Assembly (NCBI GenBank): GCA_016199675.1
Contig: JACQGE010000126.1
Span: 1,527-65,526, forward strand
Length of the DNA: 64,000 bases
DNA from: Acidobacteriota bacterium
Lineage (GTDB): Bacteria > Acidobacteriota > Terriglobia > 2-12-FULL-54-10
Direction: 5' to 3'
A program made the translations under genes and the position numbers. The notes below the pieces were generated by a model that ran no database searches, was not told the origin of the DNA, and was given only the letters and a program-made list of their open reading frames with translations. Below, one piece after another: positions 1,991 through 8,804 of the stretch. Within the stretch, counting starts at the first letter, position 1. Each line of letters starts with the position of its first letter.

Positions 1991-2695
1991 CTAACCCCCC
2001 TTAGGGAGGACCTTTTCAGGGTAGATCATCTCGGTAAAACGTGGGTCCTCCTCCAAATTGGAAAAGTCGGGATCTTTTTGTGCCAGGAATCGGTTCTGAG
2101 GATTGAGTTCAATCGCCTTCCGAAGATATTCCAATGCACCTTCAGCATTTTTCCGCAATGCCTGTGTCGTTGCCAATGCGTAATGTATATAGTCAGATTC
2201 AGGTGCTAATTTTAGTGCTTTTTTCAAAGATTCTTCCGCTTCTTCGAAGTTTCCTTGATTGGCTAATTGAATTCCGTGATTATAGAAATCATCCACGGTT
2301 TTCAAATGCAAAGTGGATTTCGATAGCCTCTGATTACAAATATGTAAATAGATTCGCGCACGTTCTGCCAAATCAGGCGCCGGGGCCGAAGATAGTCGCT
2401 CCAGAATCGCGCGCGCCTTAGCAAACTCATTATTATTGAAGAGCTTTACGGCATTCGCAAACTGTTCTAAAGCATTTTTGAAAGCAATTTCTTCTGAGGT
2501 TAGACGTCGCCGTGGGAGGGGTTTTATAATCTTTTCCTGGTACGAATCTTTGCTTCGAACGACCTTCTTAGCCGGATTCTTCTTAATGTTAATCTTTTTT
2601 TTCAAAGGCTTAGCAGTCTTAAGCGATTTTTTTTTCGAATTAGTTTGCTTACGGATTTCTTTGGAATGATTTTTTGCGGAATTAGTTTTTTTCAT
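1991..2695 (-). CDS. TPR-repeat protein with a lysine-rich basic N-terminal tail
   Basis: The first ~60 aa carry about 25% Lys/Arg (KKTNSAKNHSKEIRKQTNSKKKSLKTAKPLKKKINIKK). The C-terminal half holds several TPR-like helices (AxxxYxxGxxxxA patterns). Confidence 0.6.
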   Translation of the reverse strand: MKKTNSAKNHSKEIRKQTNSKKKSLKTAKPLKKKINIKKNPAKKVVRSKDSYQEKIIKPLPRRRLTSEEIAFKNALEQFANAVKLFNNNEFAKARAILERLSSAPAPDLAERARIYLHICNQRLSKSTLHLKTVDDFYNHGIQLANQGNFEEAEESLKKALKLAPESDYIHYALATTQALRKNAEGALEYLRKAIELNPQNRFLAQKDPDFSNLEEDPRFTEMIYPEKVLPKGG

Positions 2696-2871
2696 GCATC
2701 TAAAGTTTTTTGATTAATTTTTATAACAAAAGACTTAACAAAGTCAAGAAGCTTACAAGATATGAATTTCTAAAAAATCTCCAAAAGTTTCGAAATTGTT
2801 GCATAAATACAACACATCCTTTTTCATTACTATATGTAATATATTCATTATAAATAAATTATCATAAAGGA

Positions 2872-3825
2872 ATGGAAATTGCTTTTGCCTCTCAAGAAAT
2901 GATTTATCAACATACTATAGCTAAATCCGTTGAAATCTCTGGTATTGGGTTACATAGTGCTGTCTCTGTAAGGATTCGATTACTCCCTGGGACTGCCAAT
3001 AAGGGAATTATCTTCCGCAGGACGGACTTGGATAATTTTGAAATTCCCGCTTCCTGGAAGCATATTGCGCGCGTTAGTTATGCGACCAGCTTGATGCGCA
3101 AAGGAGTATTGATTTCTACGACTGAGCATATCCTTTCCGCACTGATGGCAATGGAGATTGACAATGCCGTCATCGAAATCAATTCCTTGGAATTGCCGAT
3201 CCTGGATGGCAGTTGCAAGCCGTATCTCGAGTTGCTCCAAAAAGCAGGGCGGCGGCGACAACGCACTCCGAGGACTTATTTGAAGATTCTGCGGCCGGTA
3301 GAGGTTGTGGAGGGAGCTAAGCGCATCGCCATCTTTTCTGCCGACAGTTTTCGCATCACCAGCAGCATTGATTTTCCGCATCCGCTGGTTGGCCATCAAT
3401 CCTTGGAGATGGAGATCACGCCGGAGGTTTATGCCCGTGAAATCGCGCCGGCGCGGACCTTTGGTTTTCTGGATCAGCTTTCACAAATGAAAGATATGGG
3501 GCTGATCCGGGGCGGCTCGCTGACCAACGCTGTAGTGTTCACACACGACTCGGTGATGAATGACGAAGGGCTGCGTTTTTCCGATGAGTGTTGCCGCCAC
3601 AAAGTTTTGGATTTGATTGGTGATCTGGCTTTGATAGGGTATCCGCTCCGAGCGCACGTGGTGGCCGAGCGGGCCGGACATGCCATGCACACAGCCTTGG
3701 TCTTGAAGCTGGTCAAGGATCGCTCGTTGTGGGAGTTGGTTACTGACGAGATACCTGCCGCTGCGCCATCCCTTTCCGCCCCGGAACTTGCCTTGGAAAC
3801 GGCCTCCCAGGCCGCCAACAGCTAA
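2872..3825 (+). CDS. lpxC: UDP-3-O-acyl-N-acetylglucosamine deacetylase
   Basis: The translation aligns along its length with LpxC: ISGIGLHS, TTEHILSAL, ARTFGF, GGSL, and HKVLDLIGDL, the zinc-site HKxLDxxGD motif. An AT-rich divergent promoter region lies upstream (2700-2870). Confidence 0.9.
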   Translation: MEIAFASQEMIYQHTIAKSVEISGIGLHSAVSVRIRLLPGTANKGIIFRRTDLDNFEIPASWKHIARVSYATSLMRKGVLISTTEHILSALMAMEIDNAVIEINSLELPILDGSCKPYLELLQKAGRRRQRTPRTYLKILRPVEVVEGAKRIAIFSADSFRITSSIDFPHPLVGHQSLEMEITPEVYAREIAPARTFGFLDQLSQMKDMGLIRGGSLTNAVVFTHDSVMNDEGLRFSDECCRHKVLDLIGDLALIGYPLRAHVVAERAGHAMHTALVLKLVKDRSLWELVTDEIPAAAPSLSAPELALETASQAANS

Positions 3826-4010
3826 AAAGTTAGTCACTTCTTTGATACCTGTGGCAAAAATGCCACACCACCAAAACGGCTTGCTCCCCCGGTTTCGTCA
3901 TGTGGTAGATGATAAACTTCCGCACTGCCGTAGGCCGGAGTGCAGCCGGAGGCGCAGCGACTCGCAACCCTCAAACGGTGCTAAGATTCTCGCTGGAGTG
4001 TTCCTGGTAA

Positions 4011-4511
4011 ATGCTAGAAAAAGCCTTACGCCGAAAACTTCCCAGCGGCTGTTTTCAGAATGTGTCAAGACAGCGTTCCGAAAACATGCGGGCCATAAAA
4101 GGAAGTTTGAACACTACTACTGAGCAGTGTTTGCGGCTTGCTCTTGTGAGGGCAGGATTGCACGGCTGGAAAGTGCGGCCGCGCGGTTTGCCTGGAAACC
4201 CGGATTTTGTTTTTCCCGAACGAAGAGTTGCCATCTTTGCAGACGGCTGCTTTTGGCATGGCTGTCCCCATTGCTGCCACGCTCCGGTTAGGAACAACTC
4301 CGCTTACTGGCGAGAAAAGATTAAGCGCAATCGGGCAAGAGATCAAAGCAATCGTCGGCGGTTGCAGACACAGGGGTGGCGAGTCCTTCGAATTTGGGAA
4401 CATGAGTTGAATAGATCACCTGATAAAGCAATCGGCCGCCTCCAATTCTTCCTGACGGCCAAAGGACGCAGGAATCTAGGAATGCGTATTAGATCAGTTC
4501 AATCGAAATAG
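4011..4511 (+). CDS. vsr: Very-short-patch repair endonuclease (T:G mismatch endonuclease)
   Basis: SENMRAIKGSLNTTTEQ...LPGNPDFVF...AIFADGCFWHGCPHC...YWREKIKRNRARD...GWRVLRIWEHEL matches the Vsr signature (NMxxIxxxNT, PGxPDxVF, F(V/A)DGCFWH). It is convergent with the methyltransferase operon. Confidence 0.8.
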   Translation: MLEKALRRKLPSGCFQNVSRQRSENMRAIKGSLNTTTEQCLRLALVRAGLHGWKVRPRGLPGNPDFVFPERRVAIFADGCFWHGCPHCCHAPVRNNSAYWREKIKRNRARDQSNRRRLQTQGWRVLRIWEHELNRSPDKAIGRLQFFLTAKGRRNLGMRIRSVQSK

Positions 4512-4535
4512 AGTTAGTCATTAGTGAGAGGTCAG

Positions 4536-5285
4536 TCAGGCCGAGGGGTACGAATCCATTTGCTTTTGAGTAAGGCTTTCCGGGAGGTTTTCGGGGCAAA
4601 TGTAGTCGTTAAAGAGAACACAAGGGACATGGACCTGGGGCTGCAAGCCCCCGTGTTTTGAGAAAGACCTCCTGCCGGCAGCAACGGATTTGTCGGCATC
4701 GCCCACGTTAAACTCGCTGTTCTTGCATTGGACTGAGACTATAGGCCGATGGGGTATCGTCCCAACTGGCAAAAGCCAGAGAATGTCAAAGCCGCCATCT
4801 CCTCTTCCCCTGCGCAACACGGGGCCATCGAAACCCAGGGTTTGCAGGTAATCGTTGAAATCCACTCTTGTTCTCCTAACATCCCTCGGGTCTCCAACTC
4901 GATGGATTGATCCCGTTGCGCGCCGGGCAAGACGCTCAGCCACACCGCACTCAAAGTCCCTCGATTTATCTCGCAAGGTTCGGATTTCTTTCATCGCTTT
5001 CACAAAGTTCAGAAAATCCGTGTCCACGGCGGTAAATCTGCCATCCTGGGGATTGTAATCAAATGGCAAGGGCGATCCTTTTCCCTTGAAATGGTTCTTC
5101 AATTCTTGCGTAGCAAGCCGCATAGCCTTTTCTGTGCTTGATGCACTCAGTTCCCTTCTGAGGTCATCCAGAAGAGGTGCTTGCTCCTCGTTCACTTGGA
5201 GATTGGAACGGGTCAACACGCGGGATTCCTGGGAACACAACTCCTCGGCAACAACCTCGAAGAACTTAAAGAGCGGGCTAGGCAT
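4536..5285 (-). CDS. Hypothetical protein with a PD-(D/E)xK-like core. Candidate restriction endonuclease of the adjacent methyltransferase operon.
   Basis: The C-terminal region contains GDGGFDILW followed about 15 aa later by VSVQCKNSE, a D...(E/Q)xK pattern. The start codon overlaps the stop of the ParB-like gene (ATGxxTAG), so it is the last gene of the M-ParB-X operon. It has no other recognisable family. Confidence 0.45.
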   Translation of the reverse strand: MPSPLFKFFEVVAEELCSQESRVLTRSNLQVNEEQAPLLDDLRRELSASSTEKAMRLATQELKNHFKGKGSPLPFDYNPQDGRFTAVDTDFLNFVKAMKEIRTLRDKSRDFECGVAERLARRATGSIHRVGDPRDVRRTRVDFNDYLQTLGFDGPVLRRGRGDGGFDILWLLPVGTIPHRPIVSVQCKNSEFNVGDADKSVAAGRRSFSKHGGLQPQVHVPCVLFNDYICPENLPESLTQKQMDSYPSA

Positions 5286-6321
5286 TCTTCGCCTTGAGAA
5301 AAGCTTTCACACTTGATTCAAAGTTCTGGAATGTTTTCAGAAGCTTTTCGGCATCGCTGTCTTTTTTCGACCGGAGGATTTTCTTTAAGAGGCGGTCTAA
5401 ATCCTTCGTGAGTTTGTGCAGCCGCTTTAGGCTCTCTTCCAGAGTGTCCACATAAAGTTCGGCTTCTTCTAAACTCTTCCGCTTGTGCAATACGTAACTG
5501 GCTTTTTCTGACCCTAACACCCTGGCTAGCTTGGCCAATTCACGTGTATCGCGGATCACTTTTCCCTGGGGATCGCGTTCGTTGCTGCCCGGTCTCTTCG
5601 GCCCGTACAAGTCATCCAGGAGACCCTTGAAATTCTGTTTGTTGAACCCTCGAATCTCCAGCGTCGTGGAATCAACGTCAAGTTGAAGGAAATTCTGTAC
5701 TCCGGTGCGCCCTAGCGCTTCACCCAGTACCCAGAAGTCCTCGTCGGGTGGCAAAGCCGCCCCCGCCAACTTAAGCAGCCGATAAGGAACCAAGAAACGT
5801 CGCGCCTGTTGCTTGGTGAGACGGACCTCCTTGATTACTCGATCGAGATTGCCGACCGATTTGATTTCTCGCTCTAAGAATTGTGCTTTACTCTTTGGCG
5901 GCCACTCTCGGAATCCAAACAGATGCCGCACCCCAAGGTAAACGCGCATCTCGTTTCGGAGCTGAGGATCAGGCTTTTTGGGAAAGACAATGACAGGGAT
6001 TTGGTCCAAGTCTGAGGTGCGTCCCTGATACTTGTCGAGATTAGCCCGGATTTCCCTTATGGCTGCTAAGCGGCGGTTGCCCTCGACGACAGCGAACCTG
6101 CCGTTTTTCTGCTTGACAACGAGAGGTTCATAATCAATGAAACCGTTTTCTAGGAGGGAGTCTACTAGTTCGGAAGCGTAGTGTGGCTTTCCATAGACGT
6201 ACCGCTGAATCTCATCTTGGCTCTTGCCAGACACATCACCGGCAAACCGGGGGTTTTCGGGATCAAAATCGAGAAGGTCAGGTGACAAATACTTCAATCT
6301 CGGCTGTTCTGACTTTGCCAT
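5278..6321 (-). CDS. ParB/Sulfiredoxin (ParB N-terminal nuclease/NTPase-like) domain protein with a C-terminal coiled-coil region
   Basis: FAVVEGNRRLAAIREI is the ParB/Srx GxRRxxA arginine-patch motif, followed by IPVIVFP. The C-terminal 120 aa are Lys/Glu/Leu-rich helix. The start was chosen at MAKSEQPRLKYL (ATG at 6321), 5 nt after the methyltransferase stop. The longer ORF-track start at 6465 would overlap the methyltransferase. Confidence 0.7.
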   Translation of the reverse strand: MAKSEQPRLKYLSPDLLDFDPENPRFAGDVSGKSQDEIQRYVYGKPHYASELVDSLLENGFIDYEPLVVKQKNGRFAVVEGNRRLAAIREIRANLDKYQGRTSDLDQIPVIVFPKKPDPQLRNEMRVYLGVRHLFGFREWPPKSKAQFLEREIKSVGNLDRVIKEVRLTKQQARRFLVPYRLLKLAGAALPPDEDFWVLGEALGRTGVQNFLQLDVDSTTLEIRGFNKQNFKGLLDDLYGPKRPGSNERDPQGKVIRDTRELAKLARVLGSEKASYVLHKRKSLEEAELYVDTLEESLKRLHKLTKDLDRLLKKILRSKKDSDAEKLLKTFQNFESSVKAFLKAKNA

Positions 6322-6326
6322 CGGAT

Positions 6327-7271
6327 TTACCAGAGGTCTCCCAAGTTTGAAACAACGGCTTTGAATAACGGTGGCGGAACAGCGTTGCCGATCAACTGGA
6401 ACCGTTCGCGCACCGTTCCTCTCTCCCATCTGAAATTTTTCGGGAATCCTTGGAGTGCTGCACATTCACGGTAGGACAATCTGCGCGCAGGTCCCTTTCG
6501 TGCGAACACCCACTTGTCCGTGTGGATTCGTTTCAGGGGAGGGCTCATTGGATGAAGCGGAACGTGCCGCCAGTGTCCCACAATGCAGGGACATGGTTCG
6601 TCCCAGTCGTGCCGCCGCCTCCTGGACAGGTAATACCAATGGAAGGGTTCGTCATTGAAATCCCCTTCCGGCCACTGCGGCATGCCGGCTAAAACTTCCT
6701 TCTGCGAAAGCGGACGGCGACCGGTTTCACTACCGTAGAGAGGCTTCGGAAATGTGTACTGGAAACTGATGTCTGACCGGATGCCAACAATGAAGATGCG
6801 TCGGCGCTGTTGTGCAACCCCATAATCTTGAGCGTCAAGCACCTGCCACTTGACACGGTAACCGGCCATTCGGTAGCGGTATAGCTGATTGTGCAGTAGC
6901 TTGCGATTCTCTCCGTAAAGCATCCCATTAACGTTTTCTACCGCGAACGCCCGTGGCAATACCGCACGCAGCACTCGGTCAAACTGCTGATACAGGAAGT
7001 TGATCGAATCACCCGTTTTGCGCCTTCCCCCTTGTGTAAAGCCTTGGCATGGATAGCAGCCCACGAGAAAATCCGCATCTGGGAAGTCAGCGAAGTCGAA
7101 GTCCTGGATGTCACCCTGTTCGATTACCGGTCCTATATTATCTTTGTAAGTCTGGCACGCCACCTCGTCAATATCATTGGCCCAAACGATGTGATGTCCA
7201 AGTTGCTTTATGGCAAAATCGGAACCGCCGCAACCACTGAACAGAGAAATCGTCTGGATTCGTTTCATCAT
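6327..7271 (-). CDS. DNA (cytosine-5)-methyltransferase
   Basis: The C5-MTase motifs are present in the canonical order: I LFSGCGG, IV GCYPCQGFT (PCQ), VI AVENV, VIII QQRRRIFIVG, and X GNAVPPPL at the C-terminus. The start was placed at MMKRIQTISLFSGCGG. The 58-aa upstream extension in the ORF track is unlikely to be real. Confidence 0.85.
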   Translation of the reverse strand: MMKRIQTISLFSGCGGSDFAIKQLGHHIVWANDIDEVACQTYKDNIGPVIEQGDIQDFDFADFPDADFLVGCYPCQGFTQGGRRKTGDSINFLYQQFDRVLRAVLPRAFAVENVNGMLYGENRKLLHNQLYRYRMAGYRVKWQVLDAQDYGVAQQRRRIFIVGIRSDISFQYTFPKPLYGSETGRRPLSQKEVLAGMPQWPEGDFNDEPFHWYYLSRRRRHDWDEPCPCIVGHWRHVPLHPMSPPLKRIHTDKWVFARKGPARRLSYRECAALQGFPKNFRWERGTVRERFQLIGNAVPPPLFKAVVSNLGDLW

Positions 7272-7589
7272 CAATCGAGCTTCTGCACGGTTCGACTTTC
7301 GAGGATCATACCAAATTCCTGTCTCTAAGCATAAACCAAAAGGCTTTCGTTGCGTTCGAGCGTCAACATTGCAAGAAATAGGCCGGTCAGACTCTCCGGC
7401 TTTGTAAGGCCTGGCTGTTGGAGTAAAAGTCGCTGCGCGGAGCACTGCGCTCCGGGCTTCGTCAGAGTCTGGATTAAGCCTCCGAACCGTTTTTCGGCAC
7501 GGTTAAAACCGTGCTTGACGGAGTTTCAAATTTCTTCTTTGAGAATTTCTCCTTATCAAACTGCGGAGTTGCGTTACACTTCCCCTTTT

Positions 7590-8804
7590 ATGAGCCAGAG
7601 GAAGAATCCCAACGAGTGTATTCCCCAAGGCTTTCTTTTTGCCGCTGAAGAAGGGGGCTTGCGGACCCACGGCAGCGGGCCGGACGTGGCCTTGATTTAT
7701 ACCGTCGCGCCCGCAAGGGTAGCCGCACTGTTCACCGCTAATCGAGTGAAAGCCGCTCCGATCCTGGTCTCTCAGGACCACCTGCGAGGCAGTCTCCGGA
7801 CGGCGCGAGCCATTGTGGTCAACGCTGGCAATGCGAATTGCGCTACGGGCGAATCGGGGATTCGCGCTGCCCGGCAATGCGCAACAGAAACGGCCCGACT
7901 GCTGAAGATACGCCCGAATCAGGTCTTGCTGGCCTCTACGGGCGTCATCGGCGTGCCCCTGAATGCGAGTGTCATCACCCGCATTCTGCCGTCGCTCGCC
8001 CGTCAACTGCATCCGGAGGGATACGTAGCCGCATCGCGGGCGATTTTAACGACCGATACCCGGCCCAAAGTTGCCGCCCGCAGCCTGCTGATTTCCGGCC
8101 GACGCATCACCATTCTGGGCATGGCCAAAGGCGCCGGAATGATCTATCCGCGAATGGCGACCATGCTGGGTTTTATTTTTACAGATGCCGCTGTCGAGCC
8201 GCCGTTTCTGCGGGCCGCCACGCGCCGCATGGGTGAGTTGAGCTTCAACCGCATCTCGGTGGATGGCGACACCTCGACGAACGACACCGTCTTTGTACTG
8301 GCCAACGGCATGGCTGGCAACAAACCCATCCAAGAAAAAAGTCCTGCCGGGAAGAAATTCTTAGAGGTTCTGACGGCAGTGGCGCAAGAGTTGGCCATTG
8401 AGATGGTCCGGGACGGGGAAGGTGCACGAAAACTAGCCGAAATCCGCGTGGAAGGAACCGTCACCGAAAAGCAGGCCGATGCCATCGCCCGCTCCATTGC
8501 CCTCTCTTCTTTGGTCAAGACCGCTCTGGCTGGCGCCGATCCGAACTGGGGCCGGATCCTGGCGGCGGCGGGCAATGCCGGAGTGGCGTTCGACCCACAT
8601 CACGTTGACATTTATCTGAATCGCACCCTGGTTTGCAAGAACGGCGTGGCGACCCATTTCAGCGAACCGACTCTCCAGCGTCAATTGCGCGCTAAAGAAG
8701 TCCTCATACGGGTCATCTTTAAACAAGGCCGTGCCCAGACCCGCTTTTGGACTTGCGATTTCACGGAAGAATACATCCGCATCAACGCCAGCTACCGCAC
8801 TTAG
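7590..8804 (+). CDS. argJ: Bifunctional glutamate N-acetyltransferase / amino-acid acetyltransferase
   Basis: The autoproteolytic site ATMLGFIFTDA, with its Thr nucleophile, and the C-terminus ...YIRINASYRT match ArgJ end to end. The start was set at MSQRKN (7590). The upstream 80 codons of the track ORF lie in the divergent intergenic region. Confidence 0.9.
   Translation: MSQRKNPNECIPQGFLFAAEEGGLRTHGSGPDVALIYTVAPARVAALFTANRVKAAPILVSQDHLRGSLRTARAIVVNAGNANCATGESGIRAARQCATETARLLKIRPNQVLLASTGVIGVPLNASVITRILPSLARQLHPEGYVAASRAILTTDTRPKVAARSLLISGRRITILGMAKGAGMIYPRMATMLGFIFTDAAVEPPFLRAATRRMGELSFNRISVDGDTSTNDTVFVLANGMAGNKPIQEKSPAGKKFLEVLTAVAQELAIEMVRDGEGARKLAEIRVEGTVTEKQADAIARSIALSSLVKTALAGADPNWGRILAAAGNAGVAFDPHHVDIYLNRTLVCKNGVATHFSEPTLQRQLRAKEVLIRVIFKQGRAQTRFWTCDFTEEYIRINASYRT

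What the first reader, a model, noticed from the sequence alone, without database searches (positions are those of the whole stretch)
5278..6321. ParB/Srx-fold protein with a long coiled-coil tail embedded in an R-M-like operon
The GNRRLAAI arginine patch is the NTP-binding signature of ParB/Srx proteins. ParB itself is a CTP-dependent clamp, and DUF262 is a related domain. A standalone ParB-fold protein with a 120-aa K/E-rich helical tail, coupled at both ends to an MTase and a nuclease-like gene, suggests an NTP-gated DNA sensor or clamp that licenses the nuclease. It is not a chromosome-partition protein, because there is no parA partner and no parS-like repeats nearby.
Basis: inference. 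Interest (0 to 1): 0.6.

Follow-up and report, generated by a model that had tools for sequence, protein, structure and literature searches.

The report
ParB-like subunit of a restriction-modification system
A protein built like the chromosome-partition clamp ParB sits next to an uncharacterised nuclease-like protein and a DNA cytosine methyltransferase, and this module recurs in many bacterial phyla and in E. coli prophage Wphi, so it is probably half of a previously undescribed two-subunit restriction enzyme.

Summary
Window 5278-6321 (-) encodes a 347-aa protein. It is translationally coupled to a HaeIII-like C5 methyltransferase upstream and to a nuclease-like gene downstream. A convergent vsr follows. 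The 3.4-kb island lies between lpxC and argJ, and no parA is nearby.

The trio is mobile and conserved. All 17 close loci carry methyltransferase, ParB-like gene and partner. In a distant branch, 66 of 69 loci keep the pair and 55 have a DNA methyltransferase nearby. The same three genes are orf98, orf96 and mth of coliphage Wphi and occur in 140 of 5,426 complete E. coli genomes.

The partner matches no Pfam, NCBIfam, PADLOC or PDB entry. It keeps an E...D...QxK motif on a nuclease-like secondary structure.

My best reading is a two-subunit restriction module of an m5C restriction-modification system. NTP gating and clamp behaviour are plausible but untested. In this window the partner gene carries a C-terminal frameshift, so restriction may be inactive here. 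I found no published description.

The parts
6327..7268 (-). C5 DNA cytosine methyltransferase, 313 aa from the ATG at 7268. The mechanical ORF extends to 7445.
   Evidence: Pfam PF00145 matches at E 9e-62 over profile positions 2-322 of 324, and TIGR00675 also matches. The nearest solved relative is M.HaeIII, aligned over its full length including the target-recognition region (E 3e-48); M.HhaI aligns only over the catalytic half. It is 49% identical to Wphi Mth.
5278..6321 (-). ParB/KorB-like protein, 347 aa: the finding itself.
   Evidence: There are 631 relatives at E<=1e-3 in the 90%-identity database. In the 50%-identity library, 1,281 clusters score E<=1e-10, most of them about 360 aa and matched over the full length.
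5977..6300 (-). ParB/Srx-type N-terminal nucleotide-binding domain (residues about 8-115). It holds the NPR motif (residues 23-25, nt 6247-6255) and the EGNRR motif (residues 80-84, nt 6070-6084).
   Evidence: Foldseek matches ParB, KorB, Noc and sulfiredoxin. In the profile-against-PDB search, EGNRR aligns with GERR of Spo0J and Noc. N23, R25 and E80-R84 are invariant.
5686..5967 (-). Central helical domain with a ParB-type helix-turn-helix (residues about 119-212). It includes the conserved YLGxRHxxGxxxWxPxxKA motif and 'VRLTKQQARRFLVPYRLLK'.
   Evidence: Foldseek alignments to ParB, KorB and Noc chains that contain both the N-domain and the HTH span 210-315 columns. A weak profile alignment places the Spo0J and Noc HTH on profile positions 157-195. 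One of 55 relatives matches Pfam HTH_ParB weakly.
5293..5640 (-). K/E-rich helical C-terminal region (residues 228-343). It ends in an amphipathic helical hairpin (294-316 and 322-343), a probable dimerisation element.
   Evidence: Secondary structure from the AlphaFold2 model, with pLDDT about 90 over most of the region. Composition and heptad check. R260, A274 and A287 are nearly invariant across the superfamily. The dimerisation role is inference.
4489..5285 (-). Partner gene, a putative PD-(D/E)xK-like nuclease subunit. As it reads, it gives 249 aa (4536-5285). A -1 frameshift at about 4557-4562 replaces the conserved C-terminus. The conserved ending 'GFVPLGLTDL...SIELI*' is readable in another frame down to the stop at 4489-4491.
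   Evidence: Family members are 261 aa. Frame analysis. E112, D163-G-G-x-D167 and Q186-C-K188-N189 are invariant. The predicted secondary structure is helix (E112), strand, helix, strand (starting just after D167), strand (followed by QxK), helix, strand. Foldseek matches are weak but are PD-(D/E)xK proteins: VC1899 (E 0.03), Can2, EcoO109I, MspJI and HamA. Nothing matches in Pfam, NCBIfam, PADLOC or PDB sequences.
4011..4511 (+). Vsr very-short-patch repair endonuclease, convergent with the operon.
   Evidence: TIGR00632 matches at E 1e-33 and Pfam Vsr at E 9e-18. A vsr gene accompanies the module in 12 of 17 close loci.

Best explanation
The gene encodes one of two subunits of the restriction half of a mobile 5-methylcytosine restriction-modification island. 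The island's gene order on the minus strand is C5 methyltransferase, ParB-like protein, nuclease-like partner. A convergent vsr repairs T:G mismatches that arise when 5mC is deaminated.

The ParB-like subunit has the full layout of a ParB/KorB-type DNA clamp:
- an N-terminal nucleotide-binding gate with intact phosphate-binding NPR and GxRR motifs;
- a ParB-type HTH DNA-binding domain;
- a C-terminal helical hairpin that could dimerise.

Proposed mechanism (inferred, not shown): a dimer binds DNA through the HTH. NTP binding closes the N-terminal gate, which switches or clamps the protein on DNA. In that state it recruits or activates the partner, whose E...D...QxK core cuts DNA that lacks the methyl mark laid down by the adjacent methyltransferase.

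The Glu of GERR is catalytic in M. xanthus ParB and is an invariant Asn here. By my own motif comparison, the Gln of QPR is also Asn. I therefore expect nucleotide binding with slow or altered hydrolysis, that is, a long-lived switched state.

Shown here: gene content, folds, motif conservation, co-occurrence with methyltransferases, mobility, and decay of the two genes with the methyltransferase left intact. Inferred: complex formation, NTP dependence, sensitivity to methylation, and which subunit reads the target site.

In this window the partner gene is frameshifted at its 3' end, so restriction may be inactive in this organism.
For: 1. **Fold and motifs.** The model has pLDDT 85.9. Its best PDB matches are the CTP-dependent clamps KorB, ParB and Noc, aligned over both N-domain and HTH. 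N23, R25, E80, G81, N82, R83, R84, G130, H133 and W140 are invariant down to 22-30% identity. EGNRR aligns with GERR of Spo0J and Noc.
2. **Operon structure.** The methyltransferase stop lies 5 nt before the ParB-like ATG, and the ParB-like stop overlaps the partner ATG by 8 nt.
3. **Co-occurrence.** All 17 close loci, from at least six phyla or classes and in unrelated neighbourhoods, have C5 methyltransferase, ParB-like gene and partner; 12 also have vsr. In the distant branch, 66 of 69 loci have a homologous partner immediately downstream and 47 have a C5 methyltransferase, usually adjacent. In a Pfam scan of neighbouring ORFs from 17 of the 22 loci without one, 4 ORFs matched D12 N6-adenine and 4 matched N6_N4 methyltransferases. 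Exchange of methyltransferase class around a constant pair is what a restriction module would show.
4. **Homology of the partner families.** The close and distant partner families align by hhalign at probability 96.9 and E 2e-10, with the E, D and Q residues in register.
5. **Decay pattern typical of restriction genes.** The window has a partner frameshift. L008 has a split partner gene. L017 has both the ParB-like and the partner gene split. In all three the methyltransferase is full length.
6. **Phage and defence context.** The same trio lies at the variable right end of P2-like coliphage Wphi (orf98, orf96, mth), in a Pseudomonas P2-like phage and in 140 of 5,426 complete E. coli genomes. 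The best PADLOC match is the defence candidate PDC-M38A (E 8.5e-18).
7. **Partner fold.** The motif sits on a PD-(D/E)xK-like secondary structure, and the weak Foldseek matches are all nucleases of that fold.
Against: - There is no biochemical or genetic evidence for any member. NTP binding, clamp formation, subunit interaction, cleavage and methylation sensitivity are all inferred.
- The partner's nuclease assignment is weak. The model has pLDDT 67.7, below 60 for most of residues 160-240. The best Foldseek match has E 0.03. No profile library matches.
- K188 of QxK is not conserved in the distant branch, which has QC followed by a Lys about 11 residues later.
- The Glu of GERR, catalytic in M. 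xanthus ParB, is Asn here, so a ParB-like hydrolysis cycle may not operate.
- 14 of the 69 distant loci show no methyltransferase within about 6 kb. Five of these were not scanned for other classes, and some contigs end early.
- The best structural match, KorB, is a transcriptional repressor, and DndB is a ParB-like regulator. A regulatory role is therefore not excluded.
- GGCC is not depleted in the window (ratio 0.87), so there is no footprint of restriction pressure at the site guessed from the HaeIII similarity.
Confidence: 0.55

Rival explanations
1. The ParB-like protein is a regulator of the restriction-modification operon. It would be a large controller protein in the manner of KorB or DndB that binds operators through its HTH and times nuclease expression after the island enters a new host. 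The partner alone would be the restriction enzyme.
For: The best structural match is the repressor KorB. The protein has an HTH domain. From established knowledge, DndB is a ParB-like regulator of the dnd operon, and many type II systems carry controller proteins.
Against: - The protein is about 350 aa with a conserved nucleotide pocket. Its stop codon overlaps the partner's start in the window, and in 66 of 69 distant loci a homologous partner lies immediately downstream, while the methyltransferase varies in position, strand and class.
- In L017 the ParB-like and partner genes decayed together. Losing a repressor while the nuclease was still active should have been harmful.
- No operator-like palindrome or repeat stands out upstream of the operon.
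Confidence: 0.15
2. The roles are reversed. The ParB/Srx-fold protein is itself the nuclease, as has been reported for some ParB-like proteins such as Osa. The partner would be the target-recognition or methylation-reading subunit.
For: From established knowledge, ParB/Srx-fold proteins with DNase activity have been described. The partner's nuclease fold is only weakly supported, and its Lys is not fixed across the superfamily.
Against: The partner keeps an invariant acidic and polar constellation (E112, D167, Q186) on the expected secondary-structure elements (helix, strand, strand) across both branches. Its only fold matches are PD-(D/E)xK nucleases. The residues conserved in the ParB-like protein are the nucleotide-phosphate-binding ones.
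Confidence: 0.1
3. The pair is a modification-dependent (type IV) system like a split GmrS/GmrD, in which a ParB-fold NTPase senses foreign modified DNA. The neighbouring methyltransferase would be an unrelated or only loosely linked gene.
For: Known ParB-fold defence sensors (GmrSD, BrxU, SspE, Menshen NsnA) work this way (PMC12065111). Four of 55 relatives match Pfam GmrSD_N weakly.
Against: A methyltransferase accompanies the pair in all 17 close loci and in 55 of 69 distant loci, and in the window its stop lies 5 nt before the ParB-like start codon. The window protein has no DUF262 or DUF1524/HNH match. A modification-dependent nuclease co-transcribed with a methyltransferase would risk attacking its own genome.
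Confidence: 0.08
4. It is an ordinary ParB used for DNA partition or nucleoid organisation, and it lies next to a restriction-modification system by chance.
For: The overall ParB architecture (N-domain, HTH, C-terminal helices) fits. NCBI names some members 'ParB/RepB/Spo0J family partition protein'.
Against: There is no ParA nearby. Pfam ParB_N and TIGR00180 are far below their thresholds. The gene travels with the methyltransferase and the partner through unrelated chromosomal sites and through phages. No parS-like repeats were found.
Confidence: 0.02

Closest known systems
ParB / KorB / Noc CTP-dependent DNA clamps
   Same: The domain order is the same: a ParB/Srx nucleotide-binding N-domain, then an HTH DNA-binding domain, then a C-terminal helical region. 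These are the best structural matches. The arginine pair of GxRR and an NPR motif like Box I are conserved.
   Different: - Pfam ParB_N is below threshold.
- The Glu of GERR, catalytic in M. xanthus ParB, is Asn here; by my own motif comparison the Gln of QPR is also Asn.
- There is no ParA and no parS.
- The gene is always paired with a nuclease-like protein and a DNA methyltransferase.
- The C-terminal domain is unrelated in sequence.
GmrSD / BrxU / SspE / Menshen NsnA (DUF262-type ParB-fold sensors coupled to nucleases)
   Same: A ParB/Srx-fold NTP-binding module works together with a DNA-binding domain and a nuclease in defence against foreign DNA (PMC12065111).
   Different: - Those systems are modification-dependent or sense phosphorothioate, and carry no protective methyltransferase for their own nuclease.
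- They use DUF262 (DGxQR motif) with HNH/DUF1524 or other effectors, mostly fused in one chain.
- Here the N-domain is closer to ParB_N (15 of 55 relatives against 4 of 55 for GmrSD_N), the nuclease-like part is a separate PD-(D/E)xK-like protein, and a methyltransferase accompanies the pair.
Coliphage Wphi orf98-orf96-mth (also in E. coli W and 140 complete E. coli genomes)
   Same: All three genes are homologous to those in the window. The ParB-like proteins are 27% identical (E 9e-25) and the methyltransferases 49% (E 5e-104). gp96 belongs to the partner superfamily (E 1e-78 to the distant-branch profile, which aligns with the window's family at E 2e-10).
   Different: - The proteins are larger (401 and 369 aa).
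- The methyltransferase is convergent rather than upstream in the same operon, and there is no vsr.
- The cluster is uncharacterised: GenBank and PGAP call the proteins gp98, gp96, 'ParB N-terminal domain-containing protein' and 'hypothetical protein'.
- A 1967 paper on restriction of lambda in E. coli strain W is cited as the source of the Wphi lysogen (PMC1904263). I could not read it. My recollection that the prophage confers the restriction is unverified.
PD-lambda-5 (Vassallo et al. 2022) and PADLOC candidate PDC-M38
   Same: PADLOC profiles of PD-Lambda-5_A match the N-domain (E 5e-10). PDC-M38A matches residues 48-330 (E 8.5e-18).
   Different: - PD-Lambda-5_A profiles are about 430-590 long and match only the first 90 or so residues. 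The paper labels that system with a methyltransferase domain and calls it a compacted RM+Abi system (PMC9519451).
- PDC-M38A is a 715-position profile, of which only positions 60-351 match.
- None of the partner proteins tested (the window's, 55 distant ones and three from phages and a plasmid) matches a PD-Lambda-5 or PDC-M38 model; the only hits are two isolated weak ones to other models.
- No paper mentions PDC-M38.
NgoAVII / CglI-type NTP-dependent restriction enzymes with two proteins and a C5 methyltransferase (from my own knowledge, not tested here)
   Same: A C5 methyltransferase is accompanied by two separate restriction proteins, one of which consumes nucleotide to license cleavage by the other.
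   Different: In those systems the nucleotide-using protein is an SF2 helicase-like ATPase and the nuclease has a phospholipase-D fold. Here they would be a ParB-fold protein and a PD-(D/E)xK-like protein.

Membership tests
ParB/Srx fold superfamily | Three-dimensional fold of the N-terminal domain | tested here: met
   The AlphaFold2 model has pLDDT 85.9. Foldseek probability is 0.94-1.00 to KorB, ParB, Noc, pNOB8 ParB-N and sulfiredoxin.
ParB/Srx fold superfamily | Phosphate-binding GxxR(R) motif (Box II) | tested here: met
   EGNRR is invariant in 55 sequences. It aligns with GERR of Spo0J and Noc.
Canonical partition ParB (ParB/Spo0J/RepB) | Pfam ParB_N (PF02195) or TIGR00180 at the curated threshold | tested here: not met
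   PF02195 scores 17.1 bits against a threshold of 26.3. TIGR00180 scores 20.7 against 58.45. Only 15 of 55 relatives match at E<=0.01.
Canonical partition ParB (ParB/Spo0J/RepB) | Adjacent ParA ATPase and parS sites | tested here: not met
   The flanking genes are CofD, a TPR protein, LpxC, ArgJ, a rhomboid and a cytochrome c. No repeat family was found. The called genes listed for four related loci include no ParA-family ATPase.
Canonical partition ParB (ParB/Spo0J/RepB) | Catalytic Gln (QPR) and Glu (GERR) for CTP hydrolysis | tested here: not met
   The Glu position is an invariant Asn (N82), shown by the profile alignment. Its role in M. xanthus ParB comes from bioRxiv 10.1101/2021.05.05.442810. 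The Gln-to-Asn equivalence (N23) rests on my motif comparison only.
Canonical partition ParB (ParB/Spo0J/RepB) | CTP binding and parS-stimulated clamp closure | not testable with these tools
   This needs biochemistry. The 2025 survey of the fold reports that neither sequence nor AlphaFold3 predicts NTP specificity (PMC12704722).
GmrSD-type type IV restriction (DUF262 + DUF1524/HNH) | DUF262/GmrSD_N domain and an HNH-type nuclease domain | tested here: not met
   The window protein has no PF03235 or HNH match. Four of 55 relatives match GmrSD_N weakly. The partner has no HNH match.
Restriction-modification system (methyltransferase plus a cognate nuclease that spares methylated DNA) | A DNA methyltransferase encoded with the candidate restriction genes | tested here: met
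   PF00145 matches at E 9e-62. A methyltransferase is present in all 17 close loci. In the distant branch, 47 of 69 loci have a C5 enzyme, and 8 neighbouring ORFs in loci without one are D12 or N6_N4 enzymes.
Restriction-modification system (methyltransferase plus a cognate nuclease that spares methylated DNA) | A nuclease whose cleavage is blocked by the cognate methylation | not testable with these tools
   There is only indirect support. In the window, L008 and L017 the ParB-like or partner genes have decayed while the methyltransferase is intact.
PD-(D/E)xK nuclease superfamily (partner protein) | Conserved acidic residues and Lys on an alpha-beta-beta-beta-alpha-beta core | tested here: inconclusive
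   E112, D167, Q186 and K188 are invariant in the close family. E, D and Q stay aligned in the distant family. The predicted secondary structure fits. However, the model has pLDDT 67.7, the best Foldseek match has E 0.03 (VC1899, Can2, EcoO109I, MspJI), and there are no Pfam, NCBIfam or PDB sequence matches.
PD-lambda-5 defence system | A protein matching the full PD-Lambda-5_A profile, plus PD-Lambda-5_B | tested here: not met
   Only residues 16-89 match profile positions 11-85 of about 466. No partner protein tested matches a PD-Lambda-5 or PDC-M38 model.
PADLOC candidate PDC-M38 | A full-length match to PDC-M38A, plus the other PDC-M38 components | tested here: inconclusive
   The match has E 8.5e-18 but covers only profile positions 60-351 of 715. 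The other components are unknown to me, and no paper mentions the system.

The most novel reading that the evidence does not exclude
This would be a new mechanistic class of restriction enzyme. A ParB-type nucleotide-switched DNA clamp would take the place of the ATP-driven motors or switches of type I, III and ISP enzymes, McrBC and NgoAVII-type enzymes. The clamp would load at, or be excluded from, target sites according to their methylation. It would close on NTP binding and slide along the DNA. Both catalytic residues defined in M. xanthus ParB appear to be Asn here (one by profile alignment, the other by my motif comparison), so the clamp would be long-lived. It would then deliver or activate a separate PD-(D/E)xK nuclease. 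The family is widespread: 1,281 clusters at 50% identity, many phyla, and P2-like phages of E. coli and Pseudomonas. It may also be the basis of the restriction of lambda in E. coli strain W reported in 1967.
Probability: 0.25. Interest if true: 0.85.

Novelty: new variant of a known kind. Interest (0 to 1): 0.66.

Why it matters
ParB-type CTP switches are currently known from chromosome and plasmid segregation (ParB), nucleoid occlusion (Noc) and long-range gene repression (KorB). ParB-fold defence sensors are known only as DUF262 domains of modification-dependent nucleases.

A methyltransferase-protected restriction enzyme whose second subunit has the full ParB/KorB layout would link these two fields. 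It would add a new subunit type to restriction-modification systems. It would also give a function to a large family now annotated as 'ParB N-terminal domain-containing protein' plus 'hypothetical protein'.

The same module sits in prophage Wphi of the laboratory strain E. coli W, so the idea can be tested directly by genetics and biochemistry. In practical terms, defence-system and restriction-modification annotation pipelines probably miss this module, because the partner family matches no Pfam or NCBIfam model and none of PADLOC's models for the related ParB-type systems.

Tried and rejected
- **Sequence searches against the PDB.** The window protein, the close-family profile and both partner profiles gave nothing meaningful. 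Only the broad superfamily profile reached Spo0J and Noc.
- **Profile libraries for the partner.** Pfam, NCBIfam and PADLOC scans of the window partner and of 55 distant partners gave no meaningful family.
- **Search for fusions.** I looked for fusions of ParB-like protein and partner as evidence of interaction. The top 120 hits of the partner-profile search are all about 305 aa, unfused and unnamed. The top 150 ParB-like representatives are at most 471 aa.
- **Target-site guess.** The HaeIII similarity suggested GGCC, but GGCC is not depleted (ratio 0.87). Many unrelated 6-mer palindromes are depleted, so nothing can be inferred about this system.
- **Mobile-element ends.** A 38-nt imperfect inverted repeat brackets the island (3925-3962 and 7428-7465). 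It scores 28 of 38, against 24-27 in shuffled sequence, and is absent from related loci, so I treat it as chance.
- **Promoters and terminators.** The scan was uninformative.
- **Literature.** Searches on PD-lambda-5, PDC-M38, ParB with restriction or CTPase, and Wphi found no description of this trio. The 1967 paper on E. coli W restriction is not held in the library.
- **Partition ParB.** Considered and rejected; see the rival explanations.


Full report
**1. What is in the window**

The minus strand between lpxC (2872-3825, Pfam LpxC E 4e-100) and argJ (Pfam ArgJ E 5e-140) carries three tightly packed genes.

- **C5 cytosine methyltransferase**, 6327-7268. PF00145 matches at E 9e-62 over almost the whole profile.
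- **The finding**, 5278-6321, 347 aa.
- **A 249-aa ORF**, 4536-5285.

A vsr gene (4011-4511, + strand; TIGR00632 E 1e-33) converges on them. The methyltransferase stop is 5 nt from the ATG of the finding. The finding's stop overlaps the next ATG in ATGCCTAG. No ParA is among the flanking genes, and no repeat family resembling parS is present.

**2. The protein**

Pfam ParB_N matches only weakly: E 0.006, 17.1 bits against a threshold of 26.3. The AlphaFold2 model built on 40 relatives is confident, with pLDDT 85.9. Its best matches among solved structures are KorB, ParB from Caulobacter, Myxococcus and Bacillus, Noc and sulfiredoxin. The alignments to ParB, KorB and Noc extend over chains that contain both the nucleotide-binding N-domain and the HTH domain. 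The protein therefore resembles a whole ParB/KorB core, not just the Srx-like module.

A superfamily alignment reaching 22-30% identity keeps N23, R25, E80, G81, N82, R83, R84, G130, H133 and W140 invariant. A profile of that alignment aligns EGNRR with GERR of Spo0J and Noc. It also places their HTH, weakly, on residues about 157-195.

In M. xanthus ParB, Q52 and E93 are the catalytic residues for CTP hydrolysis and R95 is needed for binding (bioRxiv 10.1101/2021.05.05.442810). Here the arginines are kept, but the Glu position is an invariant Asn. By my own motif comparison, the Gln of QPR is also Asn (NPR). This predicts nucleotide binding with slow or altered hydrolysis.

The C-terminal 120 residues are 25% K+E. 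They form five helices, the last two being a heptad-like hairpin. This is a plausible dimerisation element rather than one long coiled coil.

**3. The partner**

Relatives are 261 aa. The window copy diverges after 'LTQKQ'. The conserved ending 'GFVPLGLTDL...IELI*' is readable in another frame down to 4489-4491, which indicates a -1 frameshift at about 4557-4562. It could be a real mutation or an assembly error.

The family has no Pfam, NCBIfam, PADLOC or PDB sequence match. E112, D163-G-G-x-D167 and Q186-C-K188-N189 are invariant. In the model (pLDDT 67.7) they fall on a helix, strand, helix, strand, strand, helix, strand series like a PD-(D/E)xK core. Foldseek matches are not significant, with a best E of 0.03. 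Most of the top matches, though, are proteins with that nuclease fold: VC1899, Can2, EcoO109I and MspJI, with HamA further down. I call it a probable nuclease, not a proven one.

**4. Relatives and context**

The ParB-like protein has 631 relatives at E<=1e-3 in the 90%-identity database. In the 50%-identity library, 1,281 clusters score E<=1e-10, most of them about 360 aa and matched over the full length.

Contexts retrieved for three relatives show the module in quite different neighbourhoods. The gene catalogue listed no methyltransferase in two of those loci, but my ORF and phmmer analysis found it.

A scan of one genome per species returned 80 loci. Together with the 6 retrieved earlier, this gives 86 loci:

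| Feature | Close branch, 39-100% identity, 17 loci | Distant branch, 24-39% identity, 69 loci |
|---|---|---|
| Partner gene | 17 | 66, immediately downstream |
| C5 methyltransferase | 17 | 47, mostly adjacent, either strand |
| Other methyltransferase class | none needed | 8 neighbouring ORFs: 4 D12 N6-adenine, 4 N6_N4 |
| vsr | 12 | 12 |

The close branch includes Acidobacteria, a deltaproteobacterium, Planctomycetota, Bacteroidota and Myxococcota. The distant-branch partners are about 300 aa. The Pfam scan for other methyltransferase classes covered neighbouring ORFs from 17 of the 22 distant loci that lack a C5 enzyme. The two partner branches are homologous by hhalign at probability 96.9 and E 2e-10, with the E, D and Q residues in register.

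Three close loci show decay of the candidate restriction genes with a full-length methyltransferase: the window, L008 (partner split) and L017 (both genes split). This is the pattern expected when restriction is lost and methylation is retained.

**5. A model-organism counterpart**

A tblastn search against phages found the same trio in several places.

- P2-like coliphage Wphi: gp98 (401 aa), gp96 (369 aa) and a convergent Mth cytosine methylase, at the right end of the genome.
- A P2-like Pseudomonas phage.
- A Persicobacter plasmid, which has the pair only; no methyltransferase is annotated within the 4-kb flanks shown.

The Wphi module is present in 140 of 5,426 complete E. coli genomes, including strain W. 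PGAP annotates it as 'ParB N-terminal domain-containing protein | hypothetical protein | DNA cytosine methyltransferase'.

Compared with the window, the ParB-like proteins are 27% identical (E 9e-25) and the methyltransferases 49% (E 5e-104). gp96 fits the distant-partner profile at E 1e-78.

[quoted passage not shown] I could not read it. The possible link to this gene cluster is only a lead.

**6. Relation to known systems**

PADLOC matches PDC-M38A, an unpublished candidate (E 8.5e-18 over residues 48-330, but only 40% of that profile). It also matches PD-Lambda-5_A over the N-domain only. The paper labels PD-lambda-5 with a methyltransferase domain and describes it as a compacted RM+Abi system (PMC9519451).

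In the passages I searched, the 2025 survey of the ParB-CTPase fold lists fusions to HNH and methyltransferase domains but not this operon. It also states that NTP specificity cannot be predicted from sequence or AlphaFold3 (PMC12704722).

ParB-fold defence sensors described so far are DUF262 domains of modification-dependent systems (PMC12065111). The present family matches ParB_N more often than GmrSD_N, in 15 against 4 of 55 relatives.

I found no paper that describes the trio.

**7. Interpretation**

The most economical reading is that the ParB-like protein and its partner form the restriction half of a mobile restriction-modification system. The protective methyltransferase is usually a C5 enzyme, which explains the vsr.

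The ParB-like subunit probably supplies DNA binding and a nucleotide-controlled switch or clamp. The partner probably supplies cleavage. Which subunit reads the target sequence is unknown. The methyltransferase is nearest to M.HaeIII over its full length, but GGCC is not depleted in the window.

The main rival is a KorB- or DndB-like regulatory role. Against it are the strict adjacency with the partner, the invariance of the nucleotide pocket, and the joint decay of both genes in L017.

Reversed roles, a type IV system and a true partition ParB are less likely, for the reasons given under each rival.

**8. Verdict**

This is a new variant of a known kind. It is a restriction-modification system with a previously undescribed ParB/KorB-like subunit and an unannotated nuclease-like family. 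It is widespread and can be tested in E. coli W. In this particular window the nuclease-like gene appears frameshifted.

Noticed in passing
window 4489-4562 (- strand): The gene downstream of the ParB-like gene has a -1 frameshift at about 4557-4562. The last 27 or so conserved residues of the family (GFVPLGLTDL...IELI) can be read only in another frame, which ends at 4489-4491 and overlaps the 3' end of vsr, as in relative L006. This is either a real inactivating mutation or an assembly error.
   Followed up: yes
L008 7143-7794; L017 5989-7829: In two related loci the candidate restriction genes are broken while the methyltransferase is full length. In L008 the partner is split. In L017 both the ParB-like gene and the partner are split into two ORFs. 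L008 may come from a long-read assembly (my guess from the contig name), so sequencing errors are possible.
   Followed up: partly
window 3925-3962 and 7428-7465: A 38-nt imperfect inverted repeat (74% complementary) brackets the vsr-to-methyltransferase island almost exactly. It scores 28 of 38, against 24-27 in 20 shuffles, and is not found in related loci, so it is probably chance.
   Followed up: partly
L058 3586-5082, L062 1039-2583, L065 3586-5082 (Actinobacteria); L072 8143-9483; L080 9998-11365: Several distant loci without a C5 methyltransferase carry a second, longer ORF (about 450-510 aa) with weak similarity to the ParB-like protein (phmmer E 1e-14 to 2e-5). The L058 ORF has no Pfam match at 1e-5. 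Among neighbouring ORFs scanned from 17 such loci, four match D12 N6-adenine and four match N6_N4 methyltransferases; the output does not say which loci.
   Followed up: partly
[not shown]
   Followed up: no
window 1991-2695 (- strand): GC content drops to 0.37 over window 2001-3000, against about 0.53-0.55 elsewhere. The segment holds a TPR-repeat protein gene whose N-terminal third is very lysine-rich and of low complexity.
   Followed up: no
whole window: Several 6-mer palindromes are strongly depleted relative to a second-order Markov expectation: CAGCTG (3 against 21), ATCGAT (3 against 20), GTCGAC (2 against 11) and CTGCAG (5 against 20). This may reflect other restriction-modification pressures in this organism. 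GGCC itself is not depleted (0.87).
   Followed up: no
window 6327-7445 (- strand): The mechanical methyltransferase ORF extends 59 codons upstream of the likely start (ATG at 7268; the Pfam alignment begins at residue 5 from that ATG). The extension overlaps the mechanical argJ ORF on the opposite strand (7350-8804), whose Pfam match begins only at its residue 102. The true intergenic region is therefore probably about 7269-7600.
   Followed up: partly
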